Below, piece by piece: positions 3,001-53,455 of a DNA stretch of 64,000 nucleotides (the stretch's first letter is position 1; every line of letters begins with the position of its first letter). Source of the stretch: Azolla caroliniana (taxonomy: Eukaryota; Plantae; Polypodiophyta); the NCBI GenBank assembly GCA_043228905.1, contig JBHGNT010000003.1, positions 4,216,001-4,280,000 of the forward strand, given 5' to 3'. The notes beneath the pieces were generated by a model. It worked only from the letters and a program-made list of their open reading frames with translations. It searched no databases and was not told the DNA's origin. A program made the translations under genes and the position numbers.

Positions 3001-6000
3001 TAGCGCATGCCCAAACTCATGGAAAAGTGTTTCTACTTCCCAATGATTGAGAAGAGGACATGAAGATGTGTTGCTTGAAAAATTGCAGACAAGGGCAACC
3101 ACCTGTAAAACCCAGAAATATCAGAGCATTAGAAAGTAGCAATCCTACATCCCGTATGAATATGTGAAAAGATATACATCATGCAGTGTTGGTCCAATAA
3201 AGATGTGTACAAATCCAGCAAAATATATGGAAAGATAAGGAATGTCAAAATAGATAAATATTTCCAGGAGCAAATGACCTGTACTTGAGTCCTGTTATAT
3301 TATTAACATGATATATCAGCAATGAACTTTCCATAAACTAACATATAGTCGGTAAACAACCCCCGATCTAATTAGAAAGTTACTGAGACCTCAACTATAG
3401 GTGCTTTTTAGAAACAAGATTTAGACACCCTAGGATTGAGATGATATTACAGGTAGCTGATATTTGTCGTCTGCAATGCGTCTACCACCTTTCAATGCAA
3501 AATGTGCAGATCCAGGAAACTTCCCTTTACGAGAATATAGATCAAGATACAAATGTCCCAAATCACCCTGCGAGCAGCAAAATATTTAAAATCAAACATG
3601 TCTCCCAAAGAGACTTTGGAATTCTTAGAAAAAATAATATACATGTGGTCAAGGCATAACCAAATAGAAGTATCATGTTAAATTGCATGGGTAATATAAA
3701 AAATACTAAAATTAACTTAACTGGCTAGCCTTTGTATAACGGTACACATTGCACACAGTAACTGCTACAAAGAATCAAGTATATTTTCAGAGACGAGAAC
3801 TTTATTATTAAAACATAACGAGGCTACCTCATCAGAGTGTTGCAGTGTGAACTTCTGCACTCCTGGATGCCAACCCTCACCACGTGCAAGCGAAACTTCC
3901 TTTAACTTCACACCAAATAGTGATTGAGTAATTAGTTTTAGTCCTTCCACACACTGTTTCAATGGGAAAAATGATGCCACAACCTGAGACAAAAAGCCAG
4001 TGAAGTTGATACAAGGCCCATTGAAAACAAAGGAAGTTTGATTCATAAAATTCAAACAAAATAAATCTCACTCTAGCATTCAATCCCAATGACTGTTCTT
4101 TCATCAAGTTTGTATAATATGCCTCATCCCAAGCATCAATCCCTTCGAAAGATGAACCTTCAACCTGTTTTCCAAACTTTTCCAGCATTCTAAGTTCCTG
4201 AAAAATATGGATTGTCTTATCACCATGTGTAGATATGGTTATGATCGTTGCATGAAATTCAGTTTATATGAAATATGAGTGATCTATATATGTTTGTTTA
4301 ATGGCCACCCTATTCAGGATAATAAGAGTCAATAAATGTAAATTTTAATTAGCGGAAAAAAGCCATTTACAAAGCACTACAAAGTTAGCTTAAAATCTAA
4401 TCCGTACTAAAATCTGCTGGCAAAAGCTTTAGTCTAAAATAAATGTAGCTTTCAAGAGATTTAAAATCAGTGAAACCAACTACAATAGATCACATTTTGA
4501 GATCAGGATTTACCTACCAATTGATTGAATTTATCTATTGCCTCATTTGTTAATTGTATAATGCATCACCTCTATTCTAACTTGGTGGCATGTTTTCTAA
4601 GCTACAGGGATCCACATCACAATCATGCACCAGATTTTTCTTGGCTGGAGGATAACCTTTAGCATTCATATGTAATTCATGGGCAACCAGTTCACAGATA
4701 AATTTTGGAGGGGATGTGTTTATGGACACTGATTCAGTTCAGCTGTAGAACATCCCAAGAATAAAGTGCAAATATAGATTCCTTGGGTGAGTTTTGTACT
4801 CAGCATGTAATAACTTACAACAAAGGCATTCATGTACAAATCATGGATCACTGTCCCTAGGCAATCAATCAACATTTGCTGAAAGAAATATATAGTAACG
4901 TCTTTTAAGAGGTCAAAATGGCCTATAAGACCAAACAAGAGATTACATCTTAGGTGTTGTCTCGTCTTTGAGAACAAATCAAAATAAAATAAATATTACT
5001 CAGTATATATAAAAGTAAATAAGATAAAAACAGATGAGGGAATCTGGTTTTTGGCACATGCGAGATTCTCAAGTTAGATATATTGTAACTTTTGTCTTCG
5101 AAAGATCTCTAGCATAGGTCGATCCAGACTGTAGAGGTCTCAGAAACAAGGGAAGCACCTGTGATGGCAGGAGATAATGGCCTTTATCTGTCATGCACGT
5201 AGGCCCTGGCCCCATGGACCACGACCTCAGCACCCTTGTCAGATAAAGGCCATTATCACGTGCACGACAGATAAAGGCCATTATCTCCTGCCATTGCAGG
5301 TGCTTCCCTCGCTTCGGAGACCTCTCCATTCTGGATTGACCTATGCTAGAGATCTTTCGAAGACAAAAGTTACAATATATCTAACTTGAGAATCTCACAT
5401 GTGCCGAAAACCAGATTCCCTCATCTCTTTTTATCTTATTTACTTTTATATTTACTGAGTAATACTTATTTTATTTTGATTTGTTGTTCTCAAAGACAAG
5501 ACAACACTTAAGATGTAATCTCTTGTTTGGTCTTATAGGCCATTTTGGCCTCTTAAAAGACATTAATATATCTTTCTCTCTTTTCTTTCTTCTGCAGCCC
5601 TGTTTACTATTTCTTCTAGTTTATCTCTCCAGAAGAATTTCAGTTCTGATCTTGTTACTCAGGCTTGAGTGGCCTTAAACACCATCACTTAGTTTTATAA
5701 GGTTGACCAACAAATCCCTCTCTACTCAAAAAGAGTTAAAAGCATTTAGATGTCTTTGTAAGCCCTTTCAAGAGTCGGAGATCAACAAAATGTCATCAGC
5801 ATTAAATAATACTGCATGTCTACCCTTACTAAGCATGATTCTAAACCACCCAATCTTTTAGGGAACACAGTATATTAACGTCTTTTAAGAGGCGAAAATG
5901 GCCTATGATACCATACACCTGATTATTGTTTCGTCTTTGAGAACAATAAACCCAAATAAATATAAGTATTTTGCAAAGTGATCAAAATACCAGATAATCT

Positions 6001-35089: not shown

Positions 35090-38040
35090 TGTCGTAGTGT
35101 AATTCGCACACTACGTGAAAAATTACATTTTTGGTTTCTCCGGATAGGATATGGAGTACCCAGTGAGAACCGGAAGGAAGAACCGATGAGGACCGAAACC
35201 GGTAAGGAGACCGGCAAGAGCCGGATGAAGAAGGCCGGTGAGAGTTGGTGAGAAACGGACGAAGAGGACCGGTAAGAAGGATCCGGTAAGAACCGGATAA
35301 AGAAAACCGGCGAGAACCGGCAAGAGCCGGATGAAGAAGGCCGGTGAGAGTCTCTCACCAGATGAAGAGACATATTTGTAAATAGAAGAAAGTATAAAAT
35401 TATATATTACATGCATAGGGCAAGATTTGAACCTTGCACCTCCATGTTAATAATGTTAAGCCTTATCATTATACTAGCGTATTATGAATTTTAAAGTTAT
35501 ACTAGCGTATTATAAGATATGCTTCGTCTGGGAATGGTAGTCCGCATTCTTAGCAAGATGGATGGCACTTTGACTGTCGCAATAGAGCCGGTATTCATCT
35601 TGCCGGATACCGAGCTCTCCGATGAAGTCCTTCATCCATAATATTTCCTTGCCGGCTTCCACAGCCGCCATGTACTCCGCCTTCGTGGTTGACAATGCAA
35701 CCGTCTTCTGCAGCCTCGACTGCCACGAGACAGCTCCCCTTGCATATGTCATTCCATACCCGGATGTAGACCGGTTGGTATCCACATCAGTTGACATGTC
35801 CGAATCGGTGAAACTGTTGAGTTGAGGTTTTCCGGAGCCGAATCAGAGACACATATTTGAAATGCCCTTCAAATACCGGAGTATCCATTTGACCGCGTTC
35901 CAGTGCTCCTTGCCGGGATTGCTCATAAACCGGGTACTCCTCATCCGGTTCTCACCGGGTCTGCACCATCCGGTTCTTCGTAGCCGGGTACTCCTCATCC
36001 GGTTCTCACCGGGTCTGCACCATCCGGCTCTCCGTAGTCGGGTACTCCTCGTCTGGATTCGGCCTCGGCCAAGTTTGTTCATCATCACTGTTCTTCTCCC
36101 TTCCCATCCGGAGGGACCTGTCTTCCAACAAAAAGTACTTGGTGTTAGCTCGGGAAGATCTCACAAATCAAGTAGAAGGTCGGGCGCTACGAAGAAAAAC
36201 GTGTTCTGCGGTATGTCAATTTCTTTTGGAAGAAGTGTTTTGCAGGTACGGGTGCGTAGGACAAGTGATTGCGGATCGGGGAGAACTTGACTCTAATAAA
36301 GCTAGGGGATTCTTCGCCAAACATGGAGTTCGGTTAACACTAACAACGGCATACAATCCGGAAGCCAACGGGAAGGTCGAGTGAGGACATAGTCCGATCG
36401 TCAAAGCACTTGCCAAAGCATGCGACGGAAGGGTGATGGATTGGCCGCAGATGCTCTCATATGCACTATGGGCGGATCGGACAACGCATAGCTCCGTAAC
36501 CAGTTATATGCCAGCAGAACTTATGACCCGACAAGCACCGGTAATGCTGACGGAAACCGCAATCGCGACATGGACAATGCTACGATGGAAGGAAGAGATG
36601 AGCCGGGAAGAACTACTAGCGGTCCATATACGACAACTGGAGGGAAGACCGGAAGATGTAGTGGAAGCGTCATGCCGACAACAAGAAGCGTGACTCCAGA
36701 ACAAAAGCCGGTTCGACACCAAGCACCGACTACGACCATGGAAGATTGAAGAAGGAGATTGGGTGATTGTCTATGACAGTAGTTTGGATCATCAACATAC
36801 AATGGTACGAAAGTTCACAAAAAGGTGGTTCGGCCCATATGAGGTTCGGAAAGTTTTCGACAACGGAACTTACCGACTATGTGAGTTGGATGGAACGATG
36901 ATACGAGTGCCTATAGTCGGGAAACGGGTGAAGATTTTCAAGAAGCGGACTGAAGAAGAACCCTATGTGATCCTAGACAAGACCGACAAGAAGGAGCAAT
37001 CAGACGAAGATCGCGGTGATGCGGAAAGCGAGGAAAGTGGATTACAACTCATAGTCGAGTTAAGGGGAGAATTGGAGGAAGTTTCGGATGAAGGTGAATA
37101 GCAAGCATCGGGGACTTCGGCACATACCAGAGGATGTGCGGGTTCGGCGGGGGCGAGTGTCGTAGTGTAATTCGCACACTACGTGAAAAATTACATTTTT
37201 GGTTTCTCCGGATAGGATATGGAGTACCCAGTGAGAACCGGAAGGAAGAACCGGTGAGGACCGAAACCGGTAAGGAGATCGGCAAGAGCCGGATGAAGAA
37301 GGCCGGTGAGAGTTGGTGAGAAACGGACGAAGAGGACCGGTAAGAAGGATCCGGTAAGAACCGGATAAAGAAAAAACCGGCGAGAACCGGCAAGAGCCGG
37401 ATGAAGAAGGCCGGTGAGAGTCTCTCACCAGATGAAGAGACATATTTGTAAATAGAAGAAAGTATAAAATTATATATTACATGCATAGGGCAAGATTCGA
37501 ACCTTGCACCTCCATGTTAATAATGTTAAGCCTTATCATTATACTAGCGTATTATGAATTTTAAAGTTATACTAAACTTTATCCCATGTAAAATTTCTAG
37601 ACATGCATGGTACAAAAAGTTATTCATGCATAGACACTCAAGTTAAAAAGAAAAGATGAGATAGAAAGCTAATCATGCACATGCAGTGTGCATGAAAACT
37701 AAAGAGAGGAAAAGCATGATGCTTGCATGTGATAAACTTAGACTCTTCCAACACTATATAATGGAAAGAGAGAAAGATGTATAGAAGTTGTTGATTATTT
37801 TACAAGGGTTGATTAATATAATATAATCGTGGGATCCACGAGTTTGCTAACTATTTTTCTCTCTTAATTTGAGTACTCACTAATACACTATACTCGTGGG
37901 ATTCACGAGTTTTTCATATCTTTCTTTCTTACAATATATTTCGTATTCTTAATTGCCTTAGAATTTTCTTTCCTCCTAGTCCAAAACCCTAGCGGTTCCC
38001 ACCCGACTCACGCAACGATCCGGAGCCATAAGGCACGACA
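35090..38040 (+). mobile_element. Internally deleted Ty3/Gypsy LTR retrotransposon: truncated 5' LTR 35090-~35510, integrase 36131-37101, PPT, complete 3' LTR 37158-38040
   Basis: The 3' LTR runs TGTCGT...ACGACA. The two LTR copies are nearly identical over ~415 bp. PPT GGCGGGGGCGAG at 37146-37157. Integrase motifs AREDLTNQVEGRAL, IADRGE, YNPEANGKVE*GH, WFGPYEV. Apparent 4-bp TSD ACAT/ACGT. Confidence 0.88.
35515..36130 (-). mobile_element. Inverted, deleted Ty1/Copia remnant: ~200 bp of LTR start fused to the RT end and RNase H
   Basis: The minus strand starts TGTTGGAAGACAGGTCCCTCCGGATGGGAAG at 36130 (same family as 33398), followed by RFMSNPGKEHWNAVKWILRYLKG and RSTSGY..GAVSWQSRLQKTVALSTTKAEYMAA..LYCDSQSAIHLAKN..HSQTKHI. 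Confidence 0.9.
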
Positions 38041-39170
38041 ACGTTTCACTTACTTTAGGCCAAGAAAAGGGGTCAATTGGGCCCCCCAAACGGGATGGAT
38101 TCTAAACATGGATCTCAAACCTAGGTTCTCCCAGTGCATCCATGTGGAAGGCATGGTGTGACATTAGACGAGGGCTCAAGTGTGATCAATTATGTTCCAA
38201 ACATGCCTGGCTCAGTCAACGTATCCTATGGAACCCATGTATCAAGGATGAATCTAATCAACTACTGGGATCACGTAAGGGGTTGTCATGGGGATACATT
38301 GCAGAAGGTCCAGGAAAAAGTATAGAATGTTGGCGACGGTTTATGTCACTACTACTACAAGATCAAGCCAACATACTCCATGGAATTAAGGGCGGATGGA
38401 CTATGAGATCGGGAATCATTAACGCTCTACTGATTAGGCAAATTGCTACTCAAAGGACGACAATGGAGAAATGGATAGGCCACGAGGAGGAGGGATTTCT
38501 GATCCCAAGAGGTAGGGGAACACCAGACAGGATCGAAGGCTTTGAATTGCGAGACACTGAGACACCATCACAGAATAACGCAATTCGAGTACTCGCGTAT
38601 ACTGGTCATAAATGGATTGTAGATCCTGATCCACTCAAAGTACAACCCGATTGGCACATGTGTACTCATGAAAACACATGGCTACGTAAGGTCAGTTGGG
38701 ACCCTTTGCAATGGACATGGCAGGATCCTTACGCGGGGCAATGAAGCAAACCCATCCCTTTTCTTCCAATTCACAACGAGATTGGGTCGCCTTATTCTAG
38801 CAGCTCAAACCACCCGAGAGCCGGATGCTGCGAAGGTTTGGCACATATTTCAAGTTCCTCCCACAATTATCACCAAGTTTTGGCAGAAAATCTGGAAACA
38901 ACAACACGCGAGGCAAATTACCACGTTCCAGTGGCTATTAATACATAAGTCCCTACCGATGGGAGCATGGCAACGTGGGAACCTTAGGTCTCCTAATTGT
39001 GTAGAGTGCCCACATGCAGTAGAATCAATATGACATGCTCTATGGGACTGCCCAACGTCCCATCGAATATGGCGGGGGGTTGGCCGCTTGTTGCAATTAT
39101 GCCAGGTGTAAGGCTCCATCAAGTGGGGAAATATATGTTGGCTATCATGGCAGACCCCTTACACAGGCAG

Positions 39171-39621
39171 TGTCGTGACTTGAGAATAGGAGAGAGAAAA
39201 ATAAGATGACAATAGAAGGTAGAGAGAGAGAGAGAGAGAGAACACTAGAAATAGAAAGAGAGTTTATATTATAAGAGAGCAAGGATTACAAAGAGTAGGC
39301 TAAGGGGCTACAAACTGGTGTTGAACCGAATGAGTTGTGATGAATGTATAAACACCTATTTATAGGTCCTTATGGAGTATTCTAGAATGTTCTAGAATAT
39401 TTTAGATATTTATGATATTTAATATAATCATGGAATATCCTAGAATGTTCTGGAATACTCTAGAATGTCCTAGAATACTCTAAATATCTTGTAATAACTA
39501 ATAATACATATATTATAACTATACATCATATATGTTAGTATAATGGTTAAAGGTTTAACATATAGACCAAGACGTCTTGGGCTCGAATCCTTGTAAGGCC
39601 AAAATGTATGTCGTCATGACA
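39171..39621 (-). mobile_element. Solo LTR (451 bp) carrying a tRNA-like module
   Basis: Terminal inverted repeats TGTCGTGAC...GTCATGACA and a 5-bp TSD GGCAG (39166-39170 and 39622-39626). A CCTATAAATAGG box on the minus strand at ~39355 sets the orientation. Confidence 0.88.
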
Positions 39622-40949
39622 GGCAGATACGAGCATTAGGAGGAGGGGATGACTTTGGTGATAAAAGCACAAGACGTTTCTTTCTCCACCAGCGGCAATG
39701 TCCACTCAACTCCTCTTAATGACAAAGCTCAAGCTGTGTTGGAATTGGTCAGCCCAATAACTCTTTGGATTCTATGGAAACAACGGTGTAAATGAGTCTT
39801 CTCCAACCAAACCGCGCATCCAACAAGGCTACTACAAGGGATATGGAATGAAATTGTAGCGACTCTAAAGAGCCAATATGATGGCCTCAAGGGCGGCTCC
39901 GATGAAGTTGAACGACAACGAATAACCTTCATCCAACAATGGTCGTCCTCTCCCTTGCTTGAGTTAGTGGACATCCACATAAGATGGAACTATCGCGTCC
40001 CTATAGGGATTTGTACATAATCGTCTCATTTGTAAAATTTTATAGCTAATGGAAGGAGTTTTTTTTGGGGAAAAAAAAAAGATGCTCACCCTCCATCCCA
40101 ATGTGCTAAATGATTAGCTACCATTAACCTTGGATATTTAATTTGTCTATCACAATTCACAAAATTTCACTAAGAGGTTGCAAACTTGCAACTTAATCTC
40201 TTCTTTCTCAATAAAAAATATTTGCTAGATCTCTTGTAATTAGCCTAAATGTCAGGGGGAAGTTATTAGACTACAAATACAACGCCTTGGGTTTAAGGTT
40301 TGACTTTCACACATTTTTATTTCATCATGCATATTATTTTTTAACCTAATAGAGGCTATTGTTGAGAGTCTAGTTTGAACGCATGCCAACGTGATCTTTT
40401 CTAGACAACCTTACCCATAGCGGTAAGTTATTATATTACTAACACACGGCTTAAACCATAATAGTTTGGTCTTTATTGTACAACCTTACTCTTAGTGGTA
40501 AGTTGTTAAAGTGCTAAAACAACGTCTTGGGTTCAAGGCTCGACTTTTACACTTCTTTATTACACGATACATATTTTTTCTTATAAATCTATTAGATGCA
40601 CTGTGGAATGTATGGGTTGAACACATGACCCATTTGTCTTCGCTAGACAACCATACTAAGTGGTCTATCCCTTAAAAGCAATCTACATGTTAAAACAACA
40701 TGACAACCCAACAAGCCCTTTTTAAGTCTACAATAATAGTGGAGAGGGATCTTATGACTTTTATGGAATTGTAAGATGACCTAACATAAATGTAGTTGCA
40801 AGACAATGGGCTCATACAGTGCCTTGGATGTATGGACTACGAAACCAAATTTCCTTTCATCATTCATCGTTTTTTTTTTCCAAAACAAAATATCCTTCCA
40901 TTAGTTTTAAAAAACCTATCAAGTACAAACTACAAAAGAGATGAATGAG

Positions 40950-42110
40950 AAGAGGAAAAAGGACTATCCCAATGACGAGCCATGGATCCTGCCGCCTACT
41001 TTCATCATACCAGAAAATGTCATCATAATAATTAGACACCTTACACATGCCTTCAAGGATAGAGTTGTATAACATCGTCATTCTTATCCTACTCAATATA
41101 TCCCAATAACATGGCAAGCCGTTGTATCATATCTCCTCGAATCATATGTGATAAATGGCGACCTTCAACTTGCCTTCATTACATAAGACTTTGCAAGTAT
41201 AATTATTCGTGATCGCTCCAACATGTATGCTATCATCAAAAGTTTCATCATGTATTAAAACCGTAGGTCCAATCGAAGCTTCAACCATTACTTCACAACG
41301 TCTTGTATATCCTAAGTAAACAAGCTTCCAACCTGGTTCTATATTCCCTCCATTCTCTTGAAACTACCTCGTATACATGAAGACAATGAACCACTTGCAT
41401 GCTCACACAACTTCGGAGAACCATAGCATGCAGAACATTCTTTAAATTACATCGTTCTACCACATCCACTCCTTGTTGGAAATGAAAACCTTGATCCTTC
41501 CTATTAGCATTACTTTCGGAACATCCTAAGGATCACCCATTTCTTTCCACCAGCAATAAATTCTCAAACTGTGCTCATGCTTCAATTATTGCTCCACCTT
41601 TACAGTACCAATCTCCACTGATCCATGCTCAACATATCTTGTAACAGATGCATTTCACAAGAGAATATGTTTGTTTGGAAGAATATCATTTACATCTTGA
41701 ACTGAAGCATTACATATCCAACAAAGCATTCCCAAGCTCAATATTGTCTTCTAACAGCCTCTTACTCATAATTTCGATGTGATTTTCTATGCATGCCAAT
41801 CACTCTTTCACTGCCACCTTGGCAAACTTCTCAAGGCCAAAATCAGTGCATCCCACATCCTTGTATCTCGAAATCAAAGTTAAAAATATTTCTTATACCT
41901 CAACAAGTAAACCACAAGAAAAATCTCTGTTGAGCCATGATCCACCTATCCACATATAGCATATGTCCAACAAAGCCTTTCCAAGCTCAATATTGTCTTC
42001 TAGCAGCCTGTTACTCATGATTCCATTGCGAGGTTCTGTGCCTATTAACACTCCTACAATGCCACCTGCTGGTAATATCCTGAAATTAGTGCATTTTTAG
42101 AAGCCATAAC
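40950..42110 (-). pseudogene. Decayed PPR gene fragments
   Basis: Minus-strand remnants SKRLLEDNIELGNALLDM*, RLLEDNIELGKALLDI and LYNSILEGMCK, with numerous stops and frameshifts. Boundaries are approximate. Confidence 0.6.
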
Positions 42111-42269
42111 CTGAACCGGAAGTCCCTCTTTCCTCATAGGTAAAGCACACAAGATGAGGGTCATATGGCGGCCTTATTGCGTCTTCCATTACTGTCTCCA
42201 CACAAAGAAGTTGCATCGTGAAACACCATCCTTCTTCAACCTGCTCATAGTTAGCTATACGTACAACGT

Positions 42270-43640
42270 GCTACCAATTGTCTCCATTCATCCTCCCCAG
42301 AAAAAAGAAAAAGAAAAAAGAAGAAGAAAACCACTCCCCAAATTTGAAAAGTAAATGAAACATAATCTATCCTTCTTGTCACTCCCTAGAACTACTTCAA
42401 CATCCTTTAACATCATCTATCTCTGCCCCAAAGTAAAAAGATTTACTCATAAGGATGGCTTCCCCAAGCAAAGCCAAACCACTCTTGTAATTTCCACTTT
42501 CAATGTACACAAAGTAGTTGCATCTTGAGACAGTCTTCTATTTTCCACATTTAACCTGCTTGTAAATAGCAAAACATAAGGCATGGTACCAAATGTATAC
42601 ATCCTAGTACAATACCTTTTGACAGTTTGTCTCCACTCATCCTCCCCAGAAAAATGAGAAAACCACTCCCCAACTTTGATAAGTCATTGAAACATAATCT
42701 AGCCTCCGTGTCACTCCTAGAACTGCTTCAACATCCTTTAACATCATCCATCTTTGTCACAAACACGAAGCAAAAATATTTTCCCCCATAAGGATGGCTT
42801 CCCCAAGCAAAGCCAAAACACTCTTCTAATTCCACTTTCAACGTACACAAAGTAGCTGCATCTTAATGCAGTCTTCTATTTTCCACATTCAACTTGCTCA
42901 GAGTCAACAATACATAAAACCTACTATAAATGTATACATCTTAGTACAATACCTTTTGACAGTTTGCCTCTGCTCATCCTCCCCAAAAAAATGAGAAAAC
43001 CACTCCCCAAATTTGAAAAGTAATCGAAACATAATCTAGCCTCTCTAGCACTCCCTAGGATTGCGTCAACATCCTTTTACATCATCCATATTTGTCACAA
43101 GCACAAAGCAAAAAGATTTTCCCATGAGGATGGCTTCCCCAACCAAAGCCAAACCAGTCTTCTATTTTCCACTTTCAACGTGCACAAAACAGTTGCATCT
43201 TAAGACAATCTTCTATTTTCCCCATTCATACATAAGACATGCAACCAAATGTATACATCCTAGTACAATACCTTTTGACAATTTGACTCCAATCATCCTT
43301 CCTAGAAAAATGAGAAAACCACTCCCCAAATTTGAAAAGTTTGAAACATAATCTAGCCTCCCTGCCACTCCCTAGAACTACTTCAACATCCTTTAACATC
43401 ATCCATCTTTGTCACAAGCACAAAGCAATAAATAAATAAATAAATAAAAATAAAAAAATCCCATAAGGATGACGTCCCCCAACAAAGCCAAACCACTCTT
43501 CTATTCTCCACCTTCAACCTACTCACATTCAACCTAATGCCAAATGTATAGCTCCTAGTACAACACCTTTTAAGAATTTGTCTCCACTCATCCTCCCTAG
43601 AAAAATGAGAAAATCACTCCCCAAATTTGAAAAATAAATA
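42270..43640. repeat. ~330-bp tandem repeat, about 4 diverged copies
   Basis: The anchor CACTCCCCAAATTTGAAAA (or a close variant) recurs near 42332, 42664, 43001, 43320 and 43615. AGGATGGCTTCCCC and CAAAGCCAAA recur in each unit. Confidence 0.88.
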
Positions 43641-45100
43641 AACCCCACCATTGAATAATTATAGTAAATGCTTGATCTAACACCCTCCATCAACTATAGA
43701 AGAAACTAATACGAAATAAGTTATAATAAAGAATATTATTTAACATAAACCTCCATGTCACTCCATAGAAATGCTTCATCACATCCACTCACTATCCATT
43801 CTAATAGTACTAATAAATACTTCATCCACGCTCACCATCTGTCCATGGTACCTGTCCAACGACATTGCTTCATAATCCATTAGGTAAGTAACAAAACCCG
43901 CCGAAAAGTATCAAACAATACAGATTACATTGAATAGAAATATATAAATACCTCCCTATCACACCATAGCAACACTTCTTCCTTCCATAGCAACATCCTT
44001 CTCCAACAATGAATAGAATTATTATGTTTATCAAAAAGTTATATTCTTATGTGCCGGAAGTATATTCCATCCCAACTTAAGACTGAAATAAGAAAGGACT
44101 AGGCGGAGGAAACAACCATCGTGGTGGCACATTCATCATTCATCGTTATTGTGGTATTCCATAAAGGCCATCAACAAGGACTCATTTTTCGTACTCCAAT
44201 TCTACTATAGCCCAATACACAAGGTATTGAGTTACTAATTTGTGCCATAGGGAAGGTGAAGTTTTATAGTTTGAGCAATGAGCCATGTAAGGAATGTATG
44301 CTTATTCTCCTCCTCCAATGTGTGCATAGAAAGATCATGTCCCACAAAAAATACATCAACATTTCAAAACTATTCCGCATCAAAATAATAAATGTGTTTT
44401 TACAAACATTACTAAATGTACTATTTTTTTTAGGGTATATGCATGGGCATACAATAATTTGTCCCTATATAAAACCTATTCGATAGTTTTGAAAACAAAT
44501 TTGGACTCTATCAAACTAGATAACTTGGAAAACACGATTTTAAAATGTGTCCATATGTTCCTCTATAAGGTAATTATACAACTCACAATTACTAAGTGGC
44601 TACACATTTACTTGCCACATCACTATTATATACAACTCAAAAGCCCGTCAGTGGTGATTATGCTTGTCATATAATTTCCTTTTATTGAAAGAAAATATAG
44701 CGTTTGTTCCTTACAATCATAGTTAATTCAAAACTTGAAATGTGTCCATATATTGAGCTTCTAGATGTCAAAAGTTAGAAGTTTGTAAAACATAGAAAAC
44801 TATCAAATGATTTCATAATTCTTTCATTCCAATGTAGAACAAGGAAAATCACTGACTCCATTATATCATGATTGTTGAAGCATAGCACGAAATATGGCAT
44901 TTTCATAACAAAATTTAGCCATGTTTATCGTTGTGCTTGCCGTAAAACTCCTATTGTTTGTTTTTCATTACAATTGTATTCTACATCTTGTTGCACATTA
45001 TTATTGTACACGTTATCTATGCAAACTTTACATTTTGAAGTTGCTGCTTTCTTTTAATGCCGAAGAATTATATAAACACGAGAGAAATGCACAAGTAAAT

Positions 45101-46783
45101 CTACACAAATCTGGTATTACTCGTATTGTTAGCTTCCATATATATGTTACACATACAAACATAGGCTACAGTTTTCTTGTCATCAAGTTGCATTGCCAAT
45201 TCAAATGCATCTCTGGCAAGGTCTACATTTTTCCACTTTCGACAAGCACCAAGCAAAGCAAGGCATGTTTCCATATTAGGATGAGATGTCGTAACCCTCA
45301 TTGTTGCGACTGCTCTGTCTAATTGCCCTGATCTACTGAAAAGATCGACCATGATAGTATGGTGTTTGAGGTCTGGGGCAATACCATACACTCCACTCAT
45401 GAACTCAAAGTATGTTTGACCTTTATCTAGATGGCCTTCATGATTACACGCATTTAAGAGACTTATGAATGTAATGGAATTTGGAAGAATGTCATCTTCT
45501 CTCATTTTATCAAAAGTATAAAGAGCCTCTCCAAAATTCCCTAGTTGGGCATATCCTGTAATCAATGATGTCCAAGAGACTACATTTCGGGTCGGAAGCT
45601 TATCAAACACTTCTTGTGCTTTTGCAAGTAAACCACATTTGACATACATATCGATAAGCGCATTGCCGACAATTTGATCTGATTTGAACCATCCTCTTTG
45701 TTCAATGTGGTCATGCATTTCTTTGCCCTTCTGTGAGGCTCCAATGCTTCCACAAGCTTTCAAGCTTGATGCGAGTGTTACACTATTCGGAGTTATACCT
45801 TCAAGTTTCATCTGATCAAAACACTTCAATGCTTCCTCACCACGATCATTTTGTGAATACCCAGCAATAAGAGCTGACCACGACACAACGTCTCTTACGT
45901 GCAGCTTGTTGAACACTTTTCTTGCTTGACCTAGCATGTGGCATTTGACATACATATCAACTAAGGCCGTGCCGACCATAAGGTTGTTCTCTACTGGTCC
46001 AATCCTTTGAATTTGAGTATGTATGGTTCTACCTCTTTCACAATCGCCAATGATTCCACATGCTTTAAGGCAACATGCAAACGTGATTACATCCGGAGTT
46101 ATACCTTCAAATTGCAGTCGATCATAGCATTCCAACGCTTCTTCAGCATAGCCACATTCTACGTATCCCACTATCAATGCATTCCAAGACACTATATCCC
46201 TACTCGGAAGCTTGTTGAACACTTTGTGTGCTTCTTCACGCAATCCACATTTTGAATACATGTCTACAAGTGCATTGCCAACAAATTGATTCGTTTCAAA
46301 GATCCCTATCTTCAAGACATCTGCGTGAATATCTCGACCTTTGTCCACATCTTTGATGCTAGCACAAGCTTTCAAGGTGCAAGAGAAGGTGATGCCATCA
46401 GGAAGGATCACTTGGTTCCGCATTTCTACATAGCAATCCAATGCAAATTTTCCTTGGTCATGTTGTGAATACCCTCCAATGAGCGCATTCCATGAGACCA
46501 CATTCCTCACCGGAAGCGAATTGAACACTTCTCGAGCTTGTTCAGTAGCACCACACTTGGCATACATGTCAACAATGGCGGTGCCAATGAACAAATTTCC
46601 CGACAACTTTGTTTGTACTGTGTACTCATGTATCTCAAAACCCATCTCTTTATCTCTAAGTTTAGCACAAGACTTAAGTAAAGAGAGAATAATGTGTTCT
46701 TTTACGGGGTAGACCACATCATGACCATTTCTTTGCATTTCCTTGAGAAATCTGAGGACTGCATTTGATTTATCACACCTCAT
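45101..46783 (-). CDS. PLS-class pentatricopeptide repeat protein with an E-type extension and no DYW domain (560 aa)
   Basis: Uninterrupted ORF with repeated GNALVDMYxKCG / DVVSWNALI / PDxITF motifs, then PDLKHHTIMVDLFSRSG, ALLGACRKW and AYVCMCNIY. The true start is uncertain. Confidence 0.92.
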   Translation of the reverse strand: MRCDKSNAVLRFLKEMQRNGHDVVYPVKEHIILSLLKSCAKLRDKEMGFEIHEYTVQTKLSGNLFIGTAIVDMYAKCGATEQAREVFNSLPVRNVVSWNALIGGYSQHDQGKFALDCYVEMRNQVILPDGITFSCTLKACASIKDVDKGRDIHADVLKIGIFETNQFVGNALVDMYSKCGLREEAHKVFNKLPSRDIVSWNALIVGYVECGYAEEALECYDRLQFEGITPDVITFACCLKACGIIGDCERGRTIHTQIQRIGPVENNLMVGTALVDMYVKCHMLGQARKVFNKLHVRDVVSWSALIAGYSQNDRGEEALKCFDQMKLEGITPNSVTLASSLKACGSIGASQKGKEMHDHIEQRGWFKSDQIVGNALIDMYVKCGLLAKAQEVFDKLPTRNVVSWTSLITGYAQLGNFGEALYTFDKMREDDILPNSITFISLLNACNHEGHLDKGQTYFEFMSGVYGIAPDLKHHTIMVDLFSRSGQLDRAVATMRVTTSHPNMETCLALLGACRKWKNVDLARDAFELAMQLDDKKTVAYVCMCNIYMEANNTSNTRFV

Positions 46784-48673
46784 GCATTCATGGATGAAGG
46801 AACTCGCTGCTCAAGGAAGACTCTGTTCTGTTCTGTTCTGGGAAAGAGAGAACCCATTGAAGAAGAAAGAGCATATATCAAAACAGTTCCTCTTATTGGC
46901 TTTCATCTCCTTGAAGTGTGAAACAATCCCCCAAGAAAGGTTTCCTTTAGAAACATGTCTCTCGGAAACTTCAAATCTTTTTTCGTTCATCCGGACATCG
47001 GTTTTCATTCATTTTAATTTACCTGCTGCCCTTCATGGCTTGTGGATAACAAAACCGAACCATTGGCAACCATATGTTTCTTTGTCAATTTTCTTTCATG
47101 ATCCGATATGTTGAGATTCCTCTTCTCCAAACGAAAGAAAAGTCACTAAATTGTGAGAGAATGTTAGTATTTCTTTAGAATTTAGAGAAGATCTTTGTCT
47201 TCTAGAATTGTCACCACATTGGCCATATGATATACTTGTGGAGAGAATATAACCCACTTTTATGCTTGTTGAAACTTCGAACCGATGTAACAATCATTCA
47301 TCATTTAATACGCATCATTGTTGTACAAAATGGTAGATATGGTTTTCTTGTTAGGACTTGACGCCGAAGGGTTTAGGAAAGGGATCCAATGCTTTGTTTG
47401 AAGAGTGTTTCTTTGACTATAAGTTCCTTGCAAATAAGCCAACTCATCTATATCAAAAAATGTTTGTTTAGTTCCCATCCTAAAAGCATCAATGGATCAT
47501 TTCAATACGCATGCTCAAATTTGGGCACGAGTATAATGTGTAATACAATTTATTATCCTAATGTGCAACAAGTGCCACATACCTCTCCTCCTGAGGTGTG
47601 TGCCTAATCACTATCACAAAACTGACTACCCAACGTATGGTAAAGATTGTGGTATATTTGCATAAAAAAAACTAGGACCTAAAAATTGTTGAGCTTATGT
47701 AGATATATTGATACTAGAATAAAAATAACTAGGGCTTGTTTATACCCAATGGCTATTTTTCAAGGATTTTCTTATGTTTACATTTGAGTGGGGTAGGTTT
47801 GCCCATTTTCACAACAAAATAAGGGATTTCAAGTATTATCTATAAAAAATACACATACAGTTTTCCTCAATTCATATTTGCAAATTGCAACCATTCTTGA
47901 ATTAATTGTGCCATCAATTAGGCTTTTCATCTTTTGTTGTGTCAATGTGAGTTTTTCAATTTAAAAGCATCTCTTGTATTGCTACTATCCCAATCAAGCC
48001 ATGAGTAGACACAATCTCTTTGCATGAACCTTGAGTACTCACACAACTTTCATCTCATTCGTTAATTCACTTCTTGAGGCTTCAAATGTAGTTTTGCTTC
48101 ACTTCATGACTTTGTTCAGATCAACGTGAATAATTCCTTTACAGAAAAATAACACAACAAAGAACTCTACATAATTTACAGAAATTATTCCAAGATCTTA
48201 TAGCGAGGATGCTTCATACAGGATATTTGGAGAAACTTCAAATGCCTAAGTTTAGACCATTTAAAAAACTAGATATGTAGCATTAGCTTGTATGTGACTA
48301 ATTGAAGTTCGCTCTGTAATAACATGTCTTAAATATTCGTGTAGAATATGTATTATCAATTTAATTCCACATTTAGAGATAATCTCTTCATCTTAACCTA
48401 TACTTTACATACAATGGGTTGCTTTCCCACACATGTGCACATGTTCCGAAAGAGAAACTACCTATTCATTTCTTGCACACCCTCTTTTTGTCAGACAAAA
48501 TAAAAGTGTCATTCAGCTGTAAACAGGAGCTTAATTTTTAAGAATATGAATTACTTTCTTCTTCTCATTTTTCTTTGGAGATGCAAGAAAAGAATGAAAT
48601 CATTCTTAATATGTATGATTTTCTACATATATTTGTAAGACATTTACTGAGTTCAAAAATCTATGCATAGTTC

Positions 48674-51600
48674 TCAATATGATGTAAAGGAGTTCTGATA
48701 TTCCTCTTGTTTTCTTTTGAGAAATTCCTTGACAATAGCAACTGACCCACTAAGAACAGCTGTGCCATTCTCCATGTAAACAGCTCCATCTGCATAATCT
48801 AATTCCTCGAGTCGATGGGTAACCCACAATGCAGTCACTCCATCCAGTCCATCCACAACCCTCCTCACTGCTTCTATCACACCCATCTGAACAAAGGTTT
48901 TCTTCACTTTGAAACATTAAATAATTACAGAAATGAAAGAATTAAATAGCTCTATATGACCTCTGTGGATGTTTAACTGATTTGGGGTCTTCACTTAATC
49001 TGTTGGTTATATAAACATGTGAAAGGTTTCACATATGCGTATACACATTCTCCTTATGGAACACAAAGAACATCAACAATTTGTCGAAAGATGGTTTTCA
49101 CCTGATCTCTTTCATCAAGAAAAGTGGTCAGTTCATCAAGAAGTAAAACTTTGCTCATCTCAGCCAATGCACCAGCGATAGCAATGCGTTGTTTCTGCCC
49201 ACCACTTAATGTTTGCACTGGTCTCTACACAAAAGAATGATGATATACATAGCTAAATTCATATCTTCAAATCATCTATTGATATATATATATATATGCA
49301 AACACCATTCTATAACCCAAAATCAGCCATGACTTCTGAAGCAGAAAATAAAACTTAAATTCACATTCCCAAATTTCACAACACATTCTAAAATCTAATC
49401 TCATGATGGAGAAAGAATGGATATATTTTTTTACTTGGAGATATTCAGACATCCCGACGGCTTCCAGTGACCTCATGACTCTATCTCTCACTTCTTCTTG
49501 AGAAAGTTCAAGGTTACCAAGCCCAAACGCAACATCAGCTTCAGCTGTAGGCATTACAACCTGAAGAAAACACATACCATACGTTTTCATAGGAGGTATC
49601 ATGCAAATAAATTATAAATTTGGAAAAATTGTAGCGTAAAATATTTACTAAAAATGGTCCTAAGATTTGGTTGGGTTGGATATTCCCACACCTGATGGTC
49701 AGGATTTTGGAACACAAAGCTTTTGGGTTCTCGGATAAATAGATCCCCTGATGTAGGTTTCAAGAGCCCAGCCAATGCCTGTCTTTTTCATGTTAGATCA
49801 TAAAGTTTTTACATTGCCTGTGTGTACAAATTATTGTATATCAAAAGATGATCTAATGGTGCGACAGAAAAACCGACATATTTTTTCTATATAAACACTG
49901 TTTCACTTGAAGACAATCCAAATTATCAGTATTTGGCATCAACATACATTTCATGGCCTCTGACATAAAATTGAAACAGCTAACATTTTCCAATCCACGT
50001 TTACATTTAAAAACCATTTTATCCTTACACTTTTTCTACTATATGAGGTCGCTTTAGGGAGTTGTGGCACAAATTCCAACAAAAGTTTACACAATACAAC
50101 CCACCCCATAATCAACATGCAAACATTTTCCCAACCATAAAAAAACAGAAACCTTGAAATAATGAAATAATTGAAGCCTATTTATTTGAAGATATTCATA
50201 ATAAAAAAGATTATCATAGTAGACCATCAAGAGAAACATAGCTAGGGCTAACATCATTCTCCAGAAGACTTTTAATGAAAATGTTCCATGGGAAACAAAG
50301 CTAACAAGTGAGTTGCCATTAATTAAGTGATACAAGAAGATGGCCTTGGCAAATAGCAAGAAACCATATCAGCTGAGAACTCAGATATTAATAGCTACTA
50401 AAAATGTAATGAGAGATTCAAGAAATTAGAGTAGGAGAGACACAAAATCTAGAATGAAATGATTTGCCTTAGAATTTTCAATCAGAATACTACAGTACCA
50501 GGCCTCTTAATTTAGGCTCATTGAAAGGTGTGGCGTGACTTCATCAATGATGTCATTTGAAATCACTCAATTCTCTTGTGGTAGATATTTAATGCATTGG
50601 CTTTGAGTTTCCTCCATTACCATTTTGTGGAAATTCCTTTTGTACCTTCTCTGAATAGATTTATTTAGGTTATGCAGGGAGTTTTTCTATCAAGGGCATA
50701 TGCAAATACTCCGAAATAATGTCACTGTACATTGAGCCCACAAAGCACAAATATGCGGGAGCATCAGAACGCTGCTAGATACACCACAAAATAATGTTGG
50801 AATTTTGGAAACTATAATTAAAATAATTATTTGTTGGAATGTCTACTTCATTACAAGGCAGCATTTCCAGCATGCCATACTTGGCCAAGATCCCACATGT
50901 GGTAATCCTGTATGCACAGCCCATCCCTCTGAAAATAAGCAAACGACTTGTAAGTGCACATCCAAAAACCCGTCTGATCATTCCCATGTTTTCCAAGAGT
51001 TAGTTTCATGGTGAATTCCTAGATACCATTACAAGTTTCAAACTCTTCTTTCTCACCAAAACATAAGCTAAACAATTTGAAGGCAAAGGGCATCCTCGTT
51101 ATTTTCCTATTACATTCATCACATTATTGCATACGTTTTCCAAGAGATGAGGGAAGATGAATGCTACAATTATTGTAAAATACTGTGTAGGATTCTCAGA
51201 AAATAAGAGAAGTTGATGGTGAATTGAACCATTCAGCCAGGTATCATTAACTGAACTTTTCCTAGCACTATTGCATTGAACTCTGGAAAGTGAGGGCACT
51301 CTTCCCCATCAATGTTTGATAAGTATGTTTTATTTTGTGGGTTTCATTAAAACAGAGGCAAACGGATGTTTTAAACAAACTCCAAGTTTTGAATGTAAAT
51401 TATCAAAAACATGACCTTTATTTTTTTAGGAAATCAAAGGTTTCCCAAAACTTCAAAATGTTGAGATATCGATCACTAAATCATTTTCAAACTAATTGTT
51501 TAGGTGAGGGTAAACTCTAAAAACATGTCAATGTCACAAAACATATTTTTCACAAAAACAGATGATATTACTAGATCCTGTTAAATGAAATGAACCATGT

Positions 51601-52001
51601 GAAAAAACAAGCGATGATGATTTGAGTGTATATGAGAGAGAGGGAGGAAAAGTACCTTGAGAAGGGTGGATTTTCCACATCCATTGGGGCCAAGAAGCAT
51701 CCAGAGCTCACCTTCCGGGATGCTCATACAACAATCTCGGAGGATAGGAATGGCTCTTGAATCCCTCTTGAAACTCAGATGCAAGTGTTTCACATCAATG
51801 GCCACTCCCTTTTTACCTTCAAGATATGCGAAACAAAGAGAAAGAACAACAATCTCTCTGTTCTCTCATTCAATCAATCAATCAAGCAATCATCCATTCA
51901 TTCATACCATGTGTAATAGCAGAGCTTGGGAGGGTGGAGGCAGCAGTGCATACACTCATCCTCTGTGTTGGTCCAACAGAGCATATAATTGTGCCCATCA
52001 T
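48674..52001 (-). CDS. ABCI10: ABC transporter I family ATPase, ABCI10/NAP13-like (ECF/CbiO type), ~267 aa
   Basis: Exons 51908-52001, 51656-51816, 49692-49778, 49435-49560, 49102-49224 and 48674-48886 sum to 804 nt. Walker [59 protein letters not shown]. The Ser/Thr-rich N-terminus resembles a transit peptide. Confidence 0.92.
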
Positions 52002-53369
52002 GTCTTCTTCTCTTCATCACCAGATGTTCCTTCCATAATTCCAGTCCCCTGTTTCTCTTCTGTACTCCAAAAGCCTATTTCCTTTAGATCTCCTCCCCAG
52101 GGCATATACCCTCGAGGTTTTGGTATTTCTCCGAATGCCCTCGAGACCGATCTTCTACGGCACAAACCATCAGGTCCGTTACATAAAACATAGCCCACAA
52201 AATTATGTGTTGGATGATGTCTATTCAATTCTTGTCTTCTCGCTTTTGTATGTGCATAAAAACCTTATGCTAGTATACCTTCGCTATTTGAAATATCGAA
52301 TCCGAAGAAAAGAGGTTAGCCTCCTCACCGATCGAGTCTCAGAAAAAACATCTTAAGATGCTCTAATGAAGAGGGTAGTTATGTAGTCCAATCCCCTTTG
52401 TATGGCTCGATGCATAAAGGCTCCTAGACCACCCTGCGTTTCCACGTGTTATAAGTCCTTTATGTGTTTGCCCTAGCTCCTAAGATAATAAGTTTCCTGA
52501 TTGTCCCATTAAAATTAGTTGTAGAATTGGTCCATACGGTTATATGCCTATAGCATAAACACATAATGAGACACACATTGTGCGTAGCTCACATGCATAA
52601 CATGTAGAAGGAAAAAAAATGTGAAACCTCAAGTCTTCTTTGCTTTGCCCCAATCATTCTCCTCCCAAGCACATTCTCGATCAACCCCTTCCTTCAAACA
52701 ATTGAATGTTCCCAAGAAAGGGATTGGTTTGGGCAATGTCGCTAGTGCATGATATTTTTTAAGAGATTTTGTATTGATTTAGAGGATCCGAGTTTGTTTG
52801 ATATGGTGGTGGTTCTACAAGCCGAGAAGGTTTGGTGTGTTGCGATTTTCAAAGAGGAGAATACTTTGGCATTGGATGCATGAAAAAAAGATGAACAACC
52901 CAAGTCAATGCGTTGCATGTCCAACCATTTCTCTCTCCCTCTCTCTCTGTGTATGTAAGTAATGGTTTTCATTACAAAAGAAAAAACATTATCATGACTA
53001 ACTTACAACAAAGTATAGAGACCCTGAGAGAAATTGGACAACGATGACAACGACAACAACAAACGCAATCCCACCCTACATAGCAATTTAGAATGTCAAA
53101 TATGAATATATGTGACATTGCAATTTTCTCTCTCTTCATGGTTGAGAATCCATGACTTCTCTAGCGCTGGCAATTGCATCAAAAGAAGTCCTTTTAACTT
53201 TACAAACATATTTTCTCGCCCCCAAATTGCAAATCAATGAGGGCATTTTATGGTTGAGTTGTCCTAAGAAAAGAAATAATGCAAGTGGAAACTGTGCATG
53301 AAGAGCTTGCAAACCATGATCAATTTCTCTCTCTCTCTCTCTCTCTCTCTTCTCCTTCCACTTAGGTAT

Positions 53370-53455
53370 TGTCACGATGACATATATAATTGGCTCACAA
53401 GGATTTGAACCCCCAACCTCTTGGCATACGTTTCAAATCTTTAACCATTATGCTC
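53370..53455 (+). mobile_element. ~85-bp LTR-end fragment (terminus plus tRNA-like module) related to the solo LTR at 39171-39621
   Basis: TGTCACGATGACATATATAATTGGCTCACAAGGATTTGAAC...TTTAACCATTATGCT aligns with the minus-strand start of that LTR, TGTCATGACGACATACATTTTGGCCTTACAAGGATTCGAGC...TTTAACCATTATACT. Confidence 0.75.

What the first reader, a model, noticed from the sequence alone, without database searches (positions are those of the whole stretch)
35418..53455. tRNA-like Pol III promoter module embedded antisense in the U3 of two different LTR families
Seen: four copies of a ~65-70-nt module with A-box and B-box at tRNA spacing (~44-45 nt). (a) Solo LTR, + strand: TAGTATAATGG at 39536 and GGCTCGAATCC at 39580. 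(b, c) Both Gypsy LTRs, - strand: TAGTATAATGA (37546 and 35476) and GGTTCRAATC (37503 and 35433), inside a GCAAG/CTTGC T-arm-like stem. (d) LTR fragment at 53370, - strand: GAGCATAATGG and GGTTCAAATCC. In every copy the module is antisense to the inferred LTR direction, and in the two full-length LTRs it lies upstream of the TATA-like box. The anticodon arm is not conserved but the boxes are. Known: Cassandra TRIMs carry 5S rDNA in their LTRs, and from memory tRNA-like LTR segments have been reported in non-autonomous families (Helenus). Inference: here the module also occurs in LTRs flanking Gypsy integrase sequence and across distinct families. It may be a maintained TFIIIC/Pol III site that drives antisense RNA or acts as a chromatin boundary.
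Basis: partly seen in the sequence, partly recalled or inferred. Interest (0 to 1): 0.8.

Follow-up and report, generated by a model that had tools for sequence, protein, structure and literature searches.

The report
Backward tRNA promoters inside retrotransposon LTRs
Many protein-coding jumping genes in this plant genome carry, in thousands of copies, a backward-facing remnant of a tRNA gene that keeps its promoter boxes but not its fold, just upstream of the element's own promoter, and it likely binds the tRNA-gene transcription factor and so would shield that promoter from silencing.

Summary
Real, and larger than the finding. All four A/B-box modules are at the stated places. They are fixed parts of the LTR (30/30 and 29/29 copies), antisense to gag-pol and in U3. 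The two families belong to distant Gypsy lineages: Phygy-like (tRNA-Trp primed) and Tcn1-like (self-primed, chromodomain). Copy (d) is an older fragment of family (a), not a third family. A strict two-box pattern matches 3,402 places in the genome (control 0). In samples chosen without regard to the module it occurs in 20/30 Tcn1-like, 4/30 Phygy-like and 0/30 iMet-primed, mostly Copia, LTRs. Across 22 variants only the boxes, their spacing and the variable-loop AGGT are kept; stems and flanks fall to background. It is not Helenus, which is non-coding and sense-oriented. Best reading: a TFIIIC site acting as a barrier 114-241 bp outside the Pol II TATA (0.45). Binding and transcription are untested. 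Against: no within-family constraint, a weakened B box in young family (a), and abundant module-less families. The scan noted chromovirus LTRs with tRNA boxes in another genome (e1-10420520). My ten literature searches found no report of this arrangement.

The parts
35090..35504 (+). F1 (Phygy-like Gypsy) 5' LTR, truncated at its 3' side
   Evidence: 98.8% to 37158-37574; family LTR is 868-899 bp
35423..35476 (-). module (c): A box 35466-35476, B box 35423-35433
35516..36132 (-). inverted Copia RNase H and LTR piece that replaces most of the F1 interior
   Evidence: 92% to the Copia element in L033; frame; L033 Copia domains
36130..37157 (+). F1 integrase 3' part (interrupted) and polypurine tract
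   Evidence: 92.5% to full-length family member L031; rve hit E 1.5e-4
37158..38040 (+). F1 3' LTR, 883 bp, TG...CA
37493..37546 (-). module (b): A box 37536-37546, variable-loop AGGT, B box 37493-37503; first T4 run 23 nt after the B box
   Evidence: present in 30 of 30 family copies
37752..37763 (+). TATA-like box of the F1 LTR (inferred), about 206 bp inside the A box
   Evidence: function not tested
39171..39621 (-). F2 (Tcn1-like chromovirus) solo LTR, 451 bp, with a 5-bp target site duplication
   Evidence: family interior has gag, RT, RNase H, integrase and a chromodomain-region match
39536..39590 (+). module (a): A box 39536-39546, B box 39580-39590 with C in place of the invariant T54
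   Evidence: older subfamily and contigs of two public runs have T
39355..39365 (-). TATA box of the F2 LTR, 171 bp inside the A box
39321..39331 (-). self-primer (11 nt complementary to the sequence just after the 5' LTR); marks the inferred start of R
53370..53455 (+). 5' fragment of an older F2-subfamily LTR holding module (d) on the - strand (A 53445-53455, B 53401-53411)

Best explanation
These Gypsy LTRs carry in U3 an outward-facing, tRNA-derived A/B-box module that is likely kept as a DNA binding site for TFIIIC (with TFIIIB), which would hold chromatin open and block silencing or read-in transcription next to the element's own Pol II promoter. Shown: the module is fixed in the LTR, antisense, upstream of the TATA-like box, present in coding families of two distant lineages, and conserved only at tRNA promoter and loop positions. 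Inferred: it came from a tRNA or tRNA-derived SINE, was fixed in an ancestral LTR and spread partly by LTR swapping. Also inferred: the outward orientation puts TFIIIB on the AT-rich side facing the TATA and points any Pol III transcription away from the Pol II promoter. Untested: binding, transcription and barrier activity. It helps but is not required, since many families lack it.
For: Fixed in 30/30 F1 and 29/29 F2 top-scoring copies (L068 dropped as split). 3,402 exact two-box matches and 3,966 AGGT+B-box matches pointing at an LTR start, controls 0 and 1. Sample chosen by PPT alone: 20/30 antisense, 0/30 sense. By family, B box beats shuffles (p<0.05) in 8 of 9 and A box at 43-44 nt (p<0.01) in 6 of 9; two families keep the B box only, as expected if TFIIIC binding is the core (families are my grouping). 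Across 22 variants, pairwise identity is A 0.70, B 0.80, middle 0.32, flanks 0.32-0.36. AGGT at B-8..-5, which was not in the search pattern, is kept in 21, 18, 20 and 22 of 22. Stems are not kept (acceptor 0-4 of 7 pairs; no RF00005 hit), which favours DNA recognition over a folded RNA. A box to TATA-like box is 114-241 bp in 10 LTRs, while B box to LTR edge varies from 15 to 689 bp. L182 and L200 have a further module downstream of the TATA, also pointing outward. Contigs of another coded organism cover the B-box region and join it to the LTR start across the GC-rich repeats. Precedent: tDNA barriers in fission yeast (PMC2040200, abstract); TFIIIC sites stop read-through Pol II in budding yeast (PMC4228148, abstract).
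Against: No binding, expression or chromatin data. Within families the boxes are no more conserved than flanks (F1 B box pi 0.10, windows 0.02-0.08; shared changes at 2 and 3 of 13 key positions). The young F2 subfamily spread with T54 replaced by C, and several of its copies also changed G52. 26 of 30 Phygy-like LTRs sampled by PBS, including the commonest groups, lack it. Box identity among the 22 variants is partly built in by the search, and 2 of the 22 (G3, L021) are not shown to be in LTRs. The fission-yeast barrier is orientation-independent (PMC2040200, abstract), so barrier activity alone does not explain the strict orientation. A strong Pol II roadblock in the 3' U3 would hinder the element's own RNA (inference). 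Some TATA calls are by eye. The plant barrier review passages cite TFIIIC barriers only for yeast and animals (PMC9540200).
Confidence: 0.45

Rival explanations
1. The module is an active Pol III promoter and its antisense RNA is the selected product (copy-number control, small-RNA source, or outward transcription into the flank).
For: Both boxes are kept at 43-44 nt spacing in 20 of 22 variants. The 40 nt upstream of the A box is 68-90% AT. A T4 run lies 22-47 nt after the B box in F1, G4, G6 and L182.
Against: No T4 run before the LTR edge in the four Tcn1-like LTRs, and 305 nt away in G1, so no common RNA end. The RNA body is not conserved. Two families keep only a B box.
Confidence: 0.18
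2. It is a neutral relic: an old tRNA or SINE insertion fixed in an ancestral LTR and carried along or swapped between families.
For: No within-family constraint. Degenerate B box in young F2. Most Phygy-like LTRs lack it. LTR swapping is suggested by G6, whose F1-type LTR sits on a gag that groups with module-less elements. A SINE-like repeat with the same kind of head exists (G3).
Against: Neutral decay would not spare the boxes, spacing and AGGT while the middle and flanks fall to background. It is kept across Tcn1-like families whose integrase regions match F2 at only 45-71%, and in two lineages with about 28% RT identity.
Confidence: 0.17
3. It works at RNA level: the element RNA carries tRNA-complementary loops in U3 that pair with a tRNA and aid strand transfer or packaging, as reported for HIV-1 U3-R (title seen in the reference list of PMC11241228; content recalled) and the Ty3 bipartite PBS (recalled).
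For: Explains the antisense orientation and the conserved variable-loop AGGT, which lies outside the textbook boxes.
Against: The module is most common in self-priming elements that need no tRNA primer. In tRNA-Trp-primed families it is no closer to tRNA-Trp than in self-primed ones, and Trp was the best match in 0 of 20 variants among the 13 tRNA types held. Sense copies exist in L182 and L200.
Confidence: 0.12
4. The module is a landing pad that attracts Pol III-targeting retroelements (reading of e1-10420520 for another genome).
For: 2 of 70 copies (L156, L168) are interrupted by other sequence 8-9 nt upstream of the A box.
Against: The other 9 breaks are scattered; 0 of 52 distinct tRNA upstream regions matched the TE-rich loci held.
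Confidence: 0.05

Closest known systems
Helenus / TRIMp3 (Kojima 2024, PMC10886601; parts 1-4 of 6 of the text and supplement passages read)
   Same: tRNA-derived sequence inside LTRs, conserved around boxes A and B, not a functional tRNA.
   Different: Helenus is 311-1263 bp and non-coding. In the supplement sequences I saw, including Selaginella Helenus-1_SMo, the tRNA part is in sense, as the element's own promoter. Here it is antisense, in U3 upstream of a TATA-like box, in elements of about 5.7-8 kb with gag-pol. The paper argues autonomous partners must use Pol II and are unlikely to share long LTR stretches with TRIMp3. It also says 'not a few LTRs' in Repbase resemble tRNA and kept only TRIMs, so unreported coding cases may exist.
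Cassandra and Ajax TRIMs (as described in PMC10886601)
   Same: Pol III internal promoter captured in an LTR.
   Different: 5S-derived and non-coding; Cassandra uses it to transcribe the element.
tDNA barriers and extra-TFIIIC (ETC) sites (PMC2040200, PMC4228148, abstracts)
   Same: A/B or B-only boxes acting on neighbouring chromatin and Pol II transcription: the proposed way of working.
   Different: Those are host chromosomal sites shown by experiment in yeasts; here the site is carried by mobile elements and nothing is tested.
Phygy and Tcn1 lineages of plant Ty3/gypsy (Neumann 2019, PMC6317226, passages)
   Same: F1: 4-bp NCGN target duplication, tRNA-Trp PBS, no chromodomain match. F2: self-priming, chromodomain region, fungal relatives.
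   Different: The passages read mention no tRNA-like LTR segment; nor do those of the Tcn1 paper (PMC2864245).
tRNA-Lys3-like sequence in HIV-1 U3-R (Piekna-Przybylska 2010; title only, in the reference list of PMC11241228)
   Same: tRNA-gene-like sequence in the U3 region of a coding retroelement.
   Different: There it matches the primer tRNA and aids strand transfer (title; details recalled). Here it is not primer-specific and occurs in self-primed elements.

Membership tests
Helenus / TRIMp3 | short, non-coding TRIM | tested here: not met
   F1 and F2 families have gag, RT, RNase H and integrase between LTRs 5.3-6.9 kb apart; G4 and G6 are shorter (2.5-2.8 kb spacing) with no RT or integrase match inside
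Helenus / TRIMp3 | tRNA-derived sequence in the LTR with conserved boxes A and B | tested here: met
Helenus / TRIMp3 | tRNA part in sense, able to transcribe the element | tested here: not met
   antisense here; sense in the Helenus sequences seen; L182 and L200 have an extra sense copy
Helenus / TRIMp3 | Pol III transcription | not testable with these tools
   needs stranded raw reads or ChIP
Cassandra / Ajax | 5S rRNA-derived LTR segment | tested here: not met
   no 5S hit in Rfam scans; A/B spacing is tRNA type
tRNA gene (RF00005) | cloverleaf fold | tested here: not met
   no ARAGORN or Rfam call; acceptor stem 0-4 of 7 pairs
Independent SINE insertion | polymorphic among LTR copies, with own tail and target duplication | tested here: not met
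   fixed in 30/30 and 29/29 copies; no tail or duplication seen in the aligned flanks
Phygy | 4-bp NCGN target duplication | tested here: met
   5 of 30 F1 loci are solo LTRs with a perfect 4-bp duplication, all NCGN
Phygy | non-chromovirus using a tRNA primer other than Met | tested here: met
   PBS complementary to the genome's tRNA-Trp; no chromodomain-region match in 4 of 4 elements
Phygy | placement with REXdb Phygy on an RT-RH-INT tree | not tested
   reference sequences not held; label is 'Phygy-like'
Tcn1 | self-priming instead of a tRNA PBS | tested here: met
   11-13 nt complementarity to the LTR 33-34 nt after the TATA in 3 of 3 elements
Tcn1 | chromodomain; kinship with fungal Tf1/Sushi group | tested here: met
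   C-terminal match in 6 of 6 elements to a relative that carries PF00385; named fungal hits at 48-50%
Tcn1 | placement with REXdb Tcn1 on a tree | not tested
   label is 'Tcn1-like'
tDNA barrier / ETC site | TFIIIC occupancy and block to heterochromatin or Pol II | not testable with these tools
   motif evidence only

The most novel reading that the evidence does not exclude
Coding LTR retrotransposons of non-seed plants carry their own tRNA-gene-type insulator: a TFIIIC/Pol III module in U3, kept under selection and exchanged between a chromovirus and a non-chromovirus lineage, which brackets the Pol II promoter and fires outward. That would scatter thousands of mobile tDNA-like barriers through the genome and give the first natural plant test of TFIIIC boundary function.
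Probability: 0.3. Interest if true: 0.85.

Novelty: new variant of a known kind. Interest (0 to 1): 0.63.

Why it matters
Pol III promoters in LTRs are described for short non-coding TRIMs, where they transcribe the element. Here the module faces the other way and sits in coding elements that have their own Pol II promoter, so it must do something else or nothing. If it binds TFIIIC, it is a cis-acting anti-silencing device built into the LTR. It would also spread thousands of TFIIIC sites (3,402 strict matches) through one plant genome and make a question open in plants directly testable: do tDNA-type barriers work there? Module-bearing and module-less sister families, and a young subfamily with a weakened B box, are ready-made controls.

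Tried and rejected
Functional tRNA: rejected. Polymorphic SINE insertion: rejected. Within-family conservation test: negative, low power at about 5% divergence. Expression: no RNA holder listed; only contigs could be laid, which show neither strand nor level; uncovered bins there are not used as evidence. General feature of LTRs: rejected; 0 of 30 iMet-PBS LTRs (26 with a Copia gag match) had an antisense module. General feature of chromoviruses: not supported; 80 metagenome loci at mostly 39-61% identity gave 8 scattered weak hits in 460 kb, and only L273 (by eye) and possibly L321 show an antisense B box near the LTR start. A sense B-box-like word in Phygy-like U5 is part of a conserved U5 motif that varies at box positions, so it is not counted. 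Primer-tRNA pairing: not supported. Landing pad: not supported. The gag tree is a quick tree of 31 of 38 rows (7 gave no usable match), with long-branch warnings; it cannot give one origin or an order of events. In one search the sense control used a stricter threshold than antisense; one search repeats it on equal terms and is the figure used. The HIV-1 U3 paper is not held.
Full report
Observation. All eight box motifs lie at the stated coordinates with A-to-B spacing of 43-44 nt. A loose pattern expects 1.6 +/- 1.2 such sites per window and finds 8; the four named ones are in LTR sequence. ARAGORN and Rfam call none of them a tRNA.

Anatomy in the window. Copies (b, c) belong to family F1. 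Its 3' LTR is 37158-38040 (883 bp); the 5' copy starts at 35090, stops at 35504 and is followed by an inverted Copia piece, then the F1 integrase end and PPT. Copy (a) is in a 451-bp solo LTR, family F2, with a 5-bp target duplication; its element sense is the minus strand. Copy (d) is an ~83-bp 5' fragment of an older F2 subfamily. The window therefore holds two lineages, not three families.

Which elements. Full-length F1 members have LTRs about 6.5 kb apart, with RT, RNase H and integrase matches. They have a PBS complementary to the genome's tRNA-Trp, 4-bp NCGN duplications in 5 solo LTRs and no chromodomain match. These are Phygy features in Neumann 2019 (passages). F2 members have LTRs 5.3 kb apart with gag, RT, RNase H and integrase, a chromodomain-region match and self-priming: Tcn1 features. 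RT identity between the lineages is about 28%. These lineages suggest a non-seed plant; I did not place them on a reference tree and did not establish that any copy is competent. The self-primer marks the inferred start of R at nt 291 of the F2 LTR, so the module at nt 42-86 is in U3.

Spread. The module is in 30 of 30 F1 and 29 of 29 F2 best-matching copies (one split copy dropped; these are biased to full-length LTRs). A strict two-box pattern has 3,402 matches in the 523-Mb genome and its reversed control 0; AGGT plus B box pointing at an LTR start has 3,966 against 1. Among 20 regions fetched around first matches, modules inside paired LTRs were antisense to gag-pol or to the PBS direction. 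Exceptions in kind were a SINE-like repeat, whole tRNA-Arg copies in a third lineage, and extra sense modules in L182-type LTRs.

Samples chosen without the module. By PPT plus LTR start (Tcn1-like): 20 of 30 antisense and 0 of 30 sense within 150 nt. By tRNA-Trp PBS (Phygy-like): 6 of 30 automatic hits, 4 inside the LTR once ends were mapped (the L175 boundary is inferred). By iMet PBS (26 of 30 with a Copia gag match): 0 of 30 antisense, chance rate 4 of 180. So it is near general in Tcn1-like, a minority in Phygy-like and not seen in Copia. On a quick gag tree the Phygy-like carriers fall in three deep groups plus one apparent LTR swap.

Other organisms. Contigs of a run labelled as another organism cover the F1 LTR start and B-box region and join them across the GC-rich repeats. 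On F2, 18 contigs of that run and 1 of another read T at 39582, the canonical B-box base. One metagenome relative (L273, 59% pol identity) shows an antisense B box near its LTR start by eye; more distant chromoviruses, many probably fungal, do not.

What is conserved. Within families, nothing special: box diversity equals or exceeds flanks, and shared changes hit key positions. Across 22 variants (20 in LTRs, one SINE-like, one of unknown context) pairwise identity is 0.70 in A, 0.80 in B and 0.32-0.36 in the middle and flanks; spacing is 43-44 in 20. The boxes were partly selected for by my search. The variable-loop AGGT was not, and it is kept in 21, 18, 20 and 22 of 22. In the unbiased Tcn1-like sample the B box beats shuffles in 8 of 9 families and the A box in 6 of 9. 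Stems are lost and Rfam finds no tRNA in 14 further loci. The source tRNA cannot be named; tRNA-Arg(TCT) is most often closest among 13 types held.

Mechanism. Keeping the promoter positions and losing the fold points to DNA recognition by TFIIIC (inference from established Pol III type 2 promoter biology). The A box lies 114-241 bp from the TATA-like box in 10 LTRs, while the distance to the LTR edge ranges from 15 to 689 bp. In L182 and L200 a second module on the other side of the TATA also points outward. I read this as a self-carried barrier or open-chromatin anchor, like yeast tDNA barriers and TFIIIC roadblocks (abstracts), at 0.45. An active antisense RNA (0.18) lacks a common terminator. 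A neutral relic (0.17) fits the missing within-family signal, the weakened B box of young F2 and the success of module-less families, but not the cross-family pattern. RNA-level tRNA pairing (0.12) explains orientation but not self-primed carriers. A landing pad (0.05) is not supported.

Comparison and novelty. Helenus is the nearest described kind, but it is short and non-coding, and carries the tRNA part in sense in the sequences I saw. This is therefore not Helenus, though it probably shares the mode of origin. Ten full-text searches (listings seen, with passages of PMC13570524, PMC2864245 and PMC9540200) found no report of antisense tRNA-type boxes in U3 of coding plant Gypsy elements. The library lacks most subscription papers, Repbase entries and bioRxiv supplements, and Kojima notes that 'not a few LTRs' resemble tRNA, so prior unpublished annotation is possible. 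Earlier notes of this scan describe tRNA boxes in chromovirus LTRs of another genome (e1-10420520) and antisense tRNA relics inside coding elements elsewhere (e1-9749190, e1-7124041). These are unchecked leads and are not counted as support.

Verdict. Observation confirmed; interpretation partly supported; new variant of a known kind; interest 0.63. The distribution and cross-family conservation are solid. The function is inferred and awaits ChIP, stranded RNA data and reporter tests.

Noticed in passing
window 39321-39331; L069, L134, L135: F2 and G2 families self-prime: 11-13 nt after the 5' LTR pair with the LTR 33-34 nt after the TATA.
   Followed up: yes
L182 and L200 LTRs (L144 by eye): A second, sense A/B module lies downstream of the TATA-like box; L182 has two antisense and one sense module.
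   Followed up: partly
L076 1252-1569, L079 1219-1569: A ~320-350 bp repeat starts about 16 nt before an A box and has no LTR or protein match nearby: a SINE-like family, 2 copies seen.
   Followed up: partly
L144 4929-5004, L145 4838-4913: Whole tRNA-Arg(TCT) copies lie 540-650 bp upstream of RT in a third Gypsy lineage. They may relate to the scan's notes on tRNA-Arg ends replacing the PPT in this genome.
   Followed up: no
L140 (G6): An F1-type LTR sits on a gag that groups with module-less elements, suggesting LTR swapping.
   Followed up: partly
L156, L168: Other sequence interrupts the LTR 8-9 nt upstream of the A box, in 2 of 70 copies tested.
   Followed up: yes
window 35516-36132; L033: Copia LTRs and F1 LTRs share CCGG-rich repeats (71-81% over 130-200 bp); an inverted Copia piece replaces most of the window's F1 interior.
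   Followed up: partly
L173-L201, last ~65 nt before the PBS: Phygy-like LTRs share a strongly conserved U5 motif in 28 or so of 30 copies by eye; role unknown.
   Followed up: no
window 38106-39033: Interrupted frames with a zf-RVT match (E 2.4e-4), probably a LINE remnant into which the solo LTR inserted.
   Followed up: no
G000 C8:17.80-17.82 Mb, C16:4.99-5.11 Mb; L102, L119, L120: tRNA genes occur in tandem arrays (Trp, Lys/Asn, Ile, Arg).
   Followed up: no
window 4973-5485 and 42316-43668: A 228-nt inverted repeat pair, and a ~337-bp unit repeated four times.
   Followed up: no
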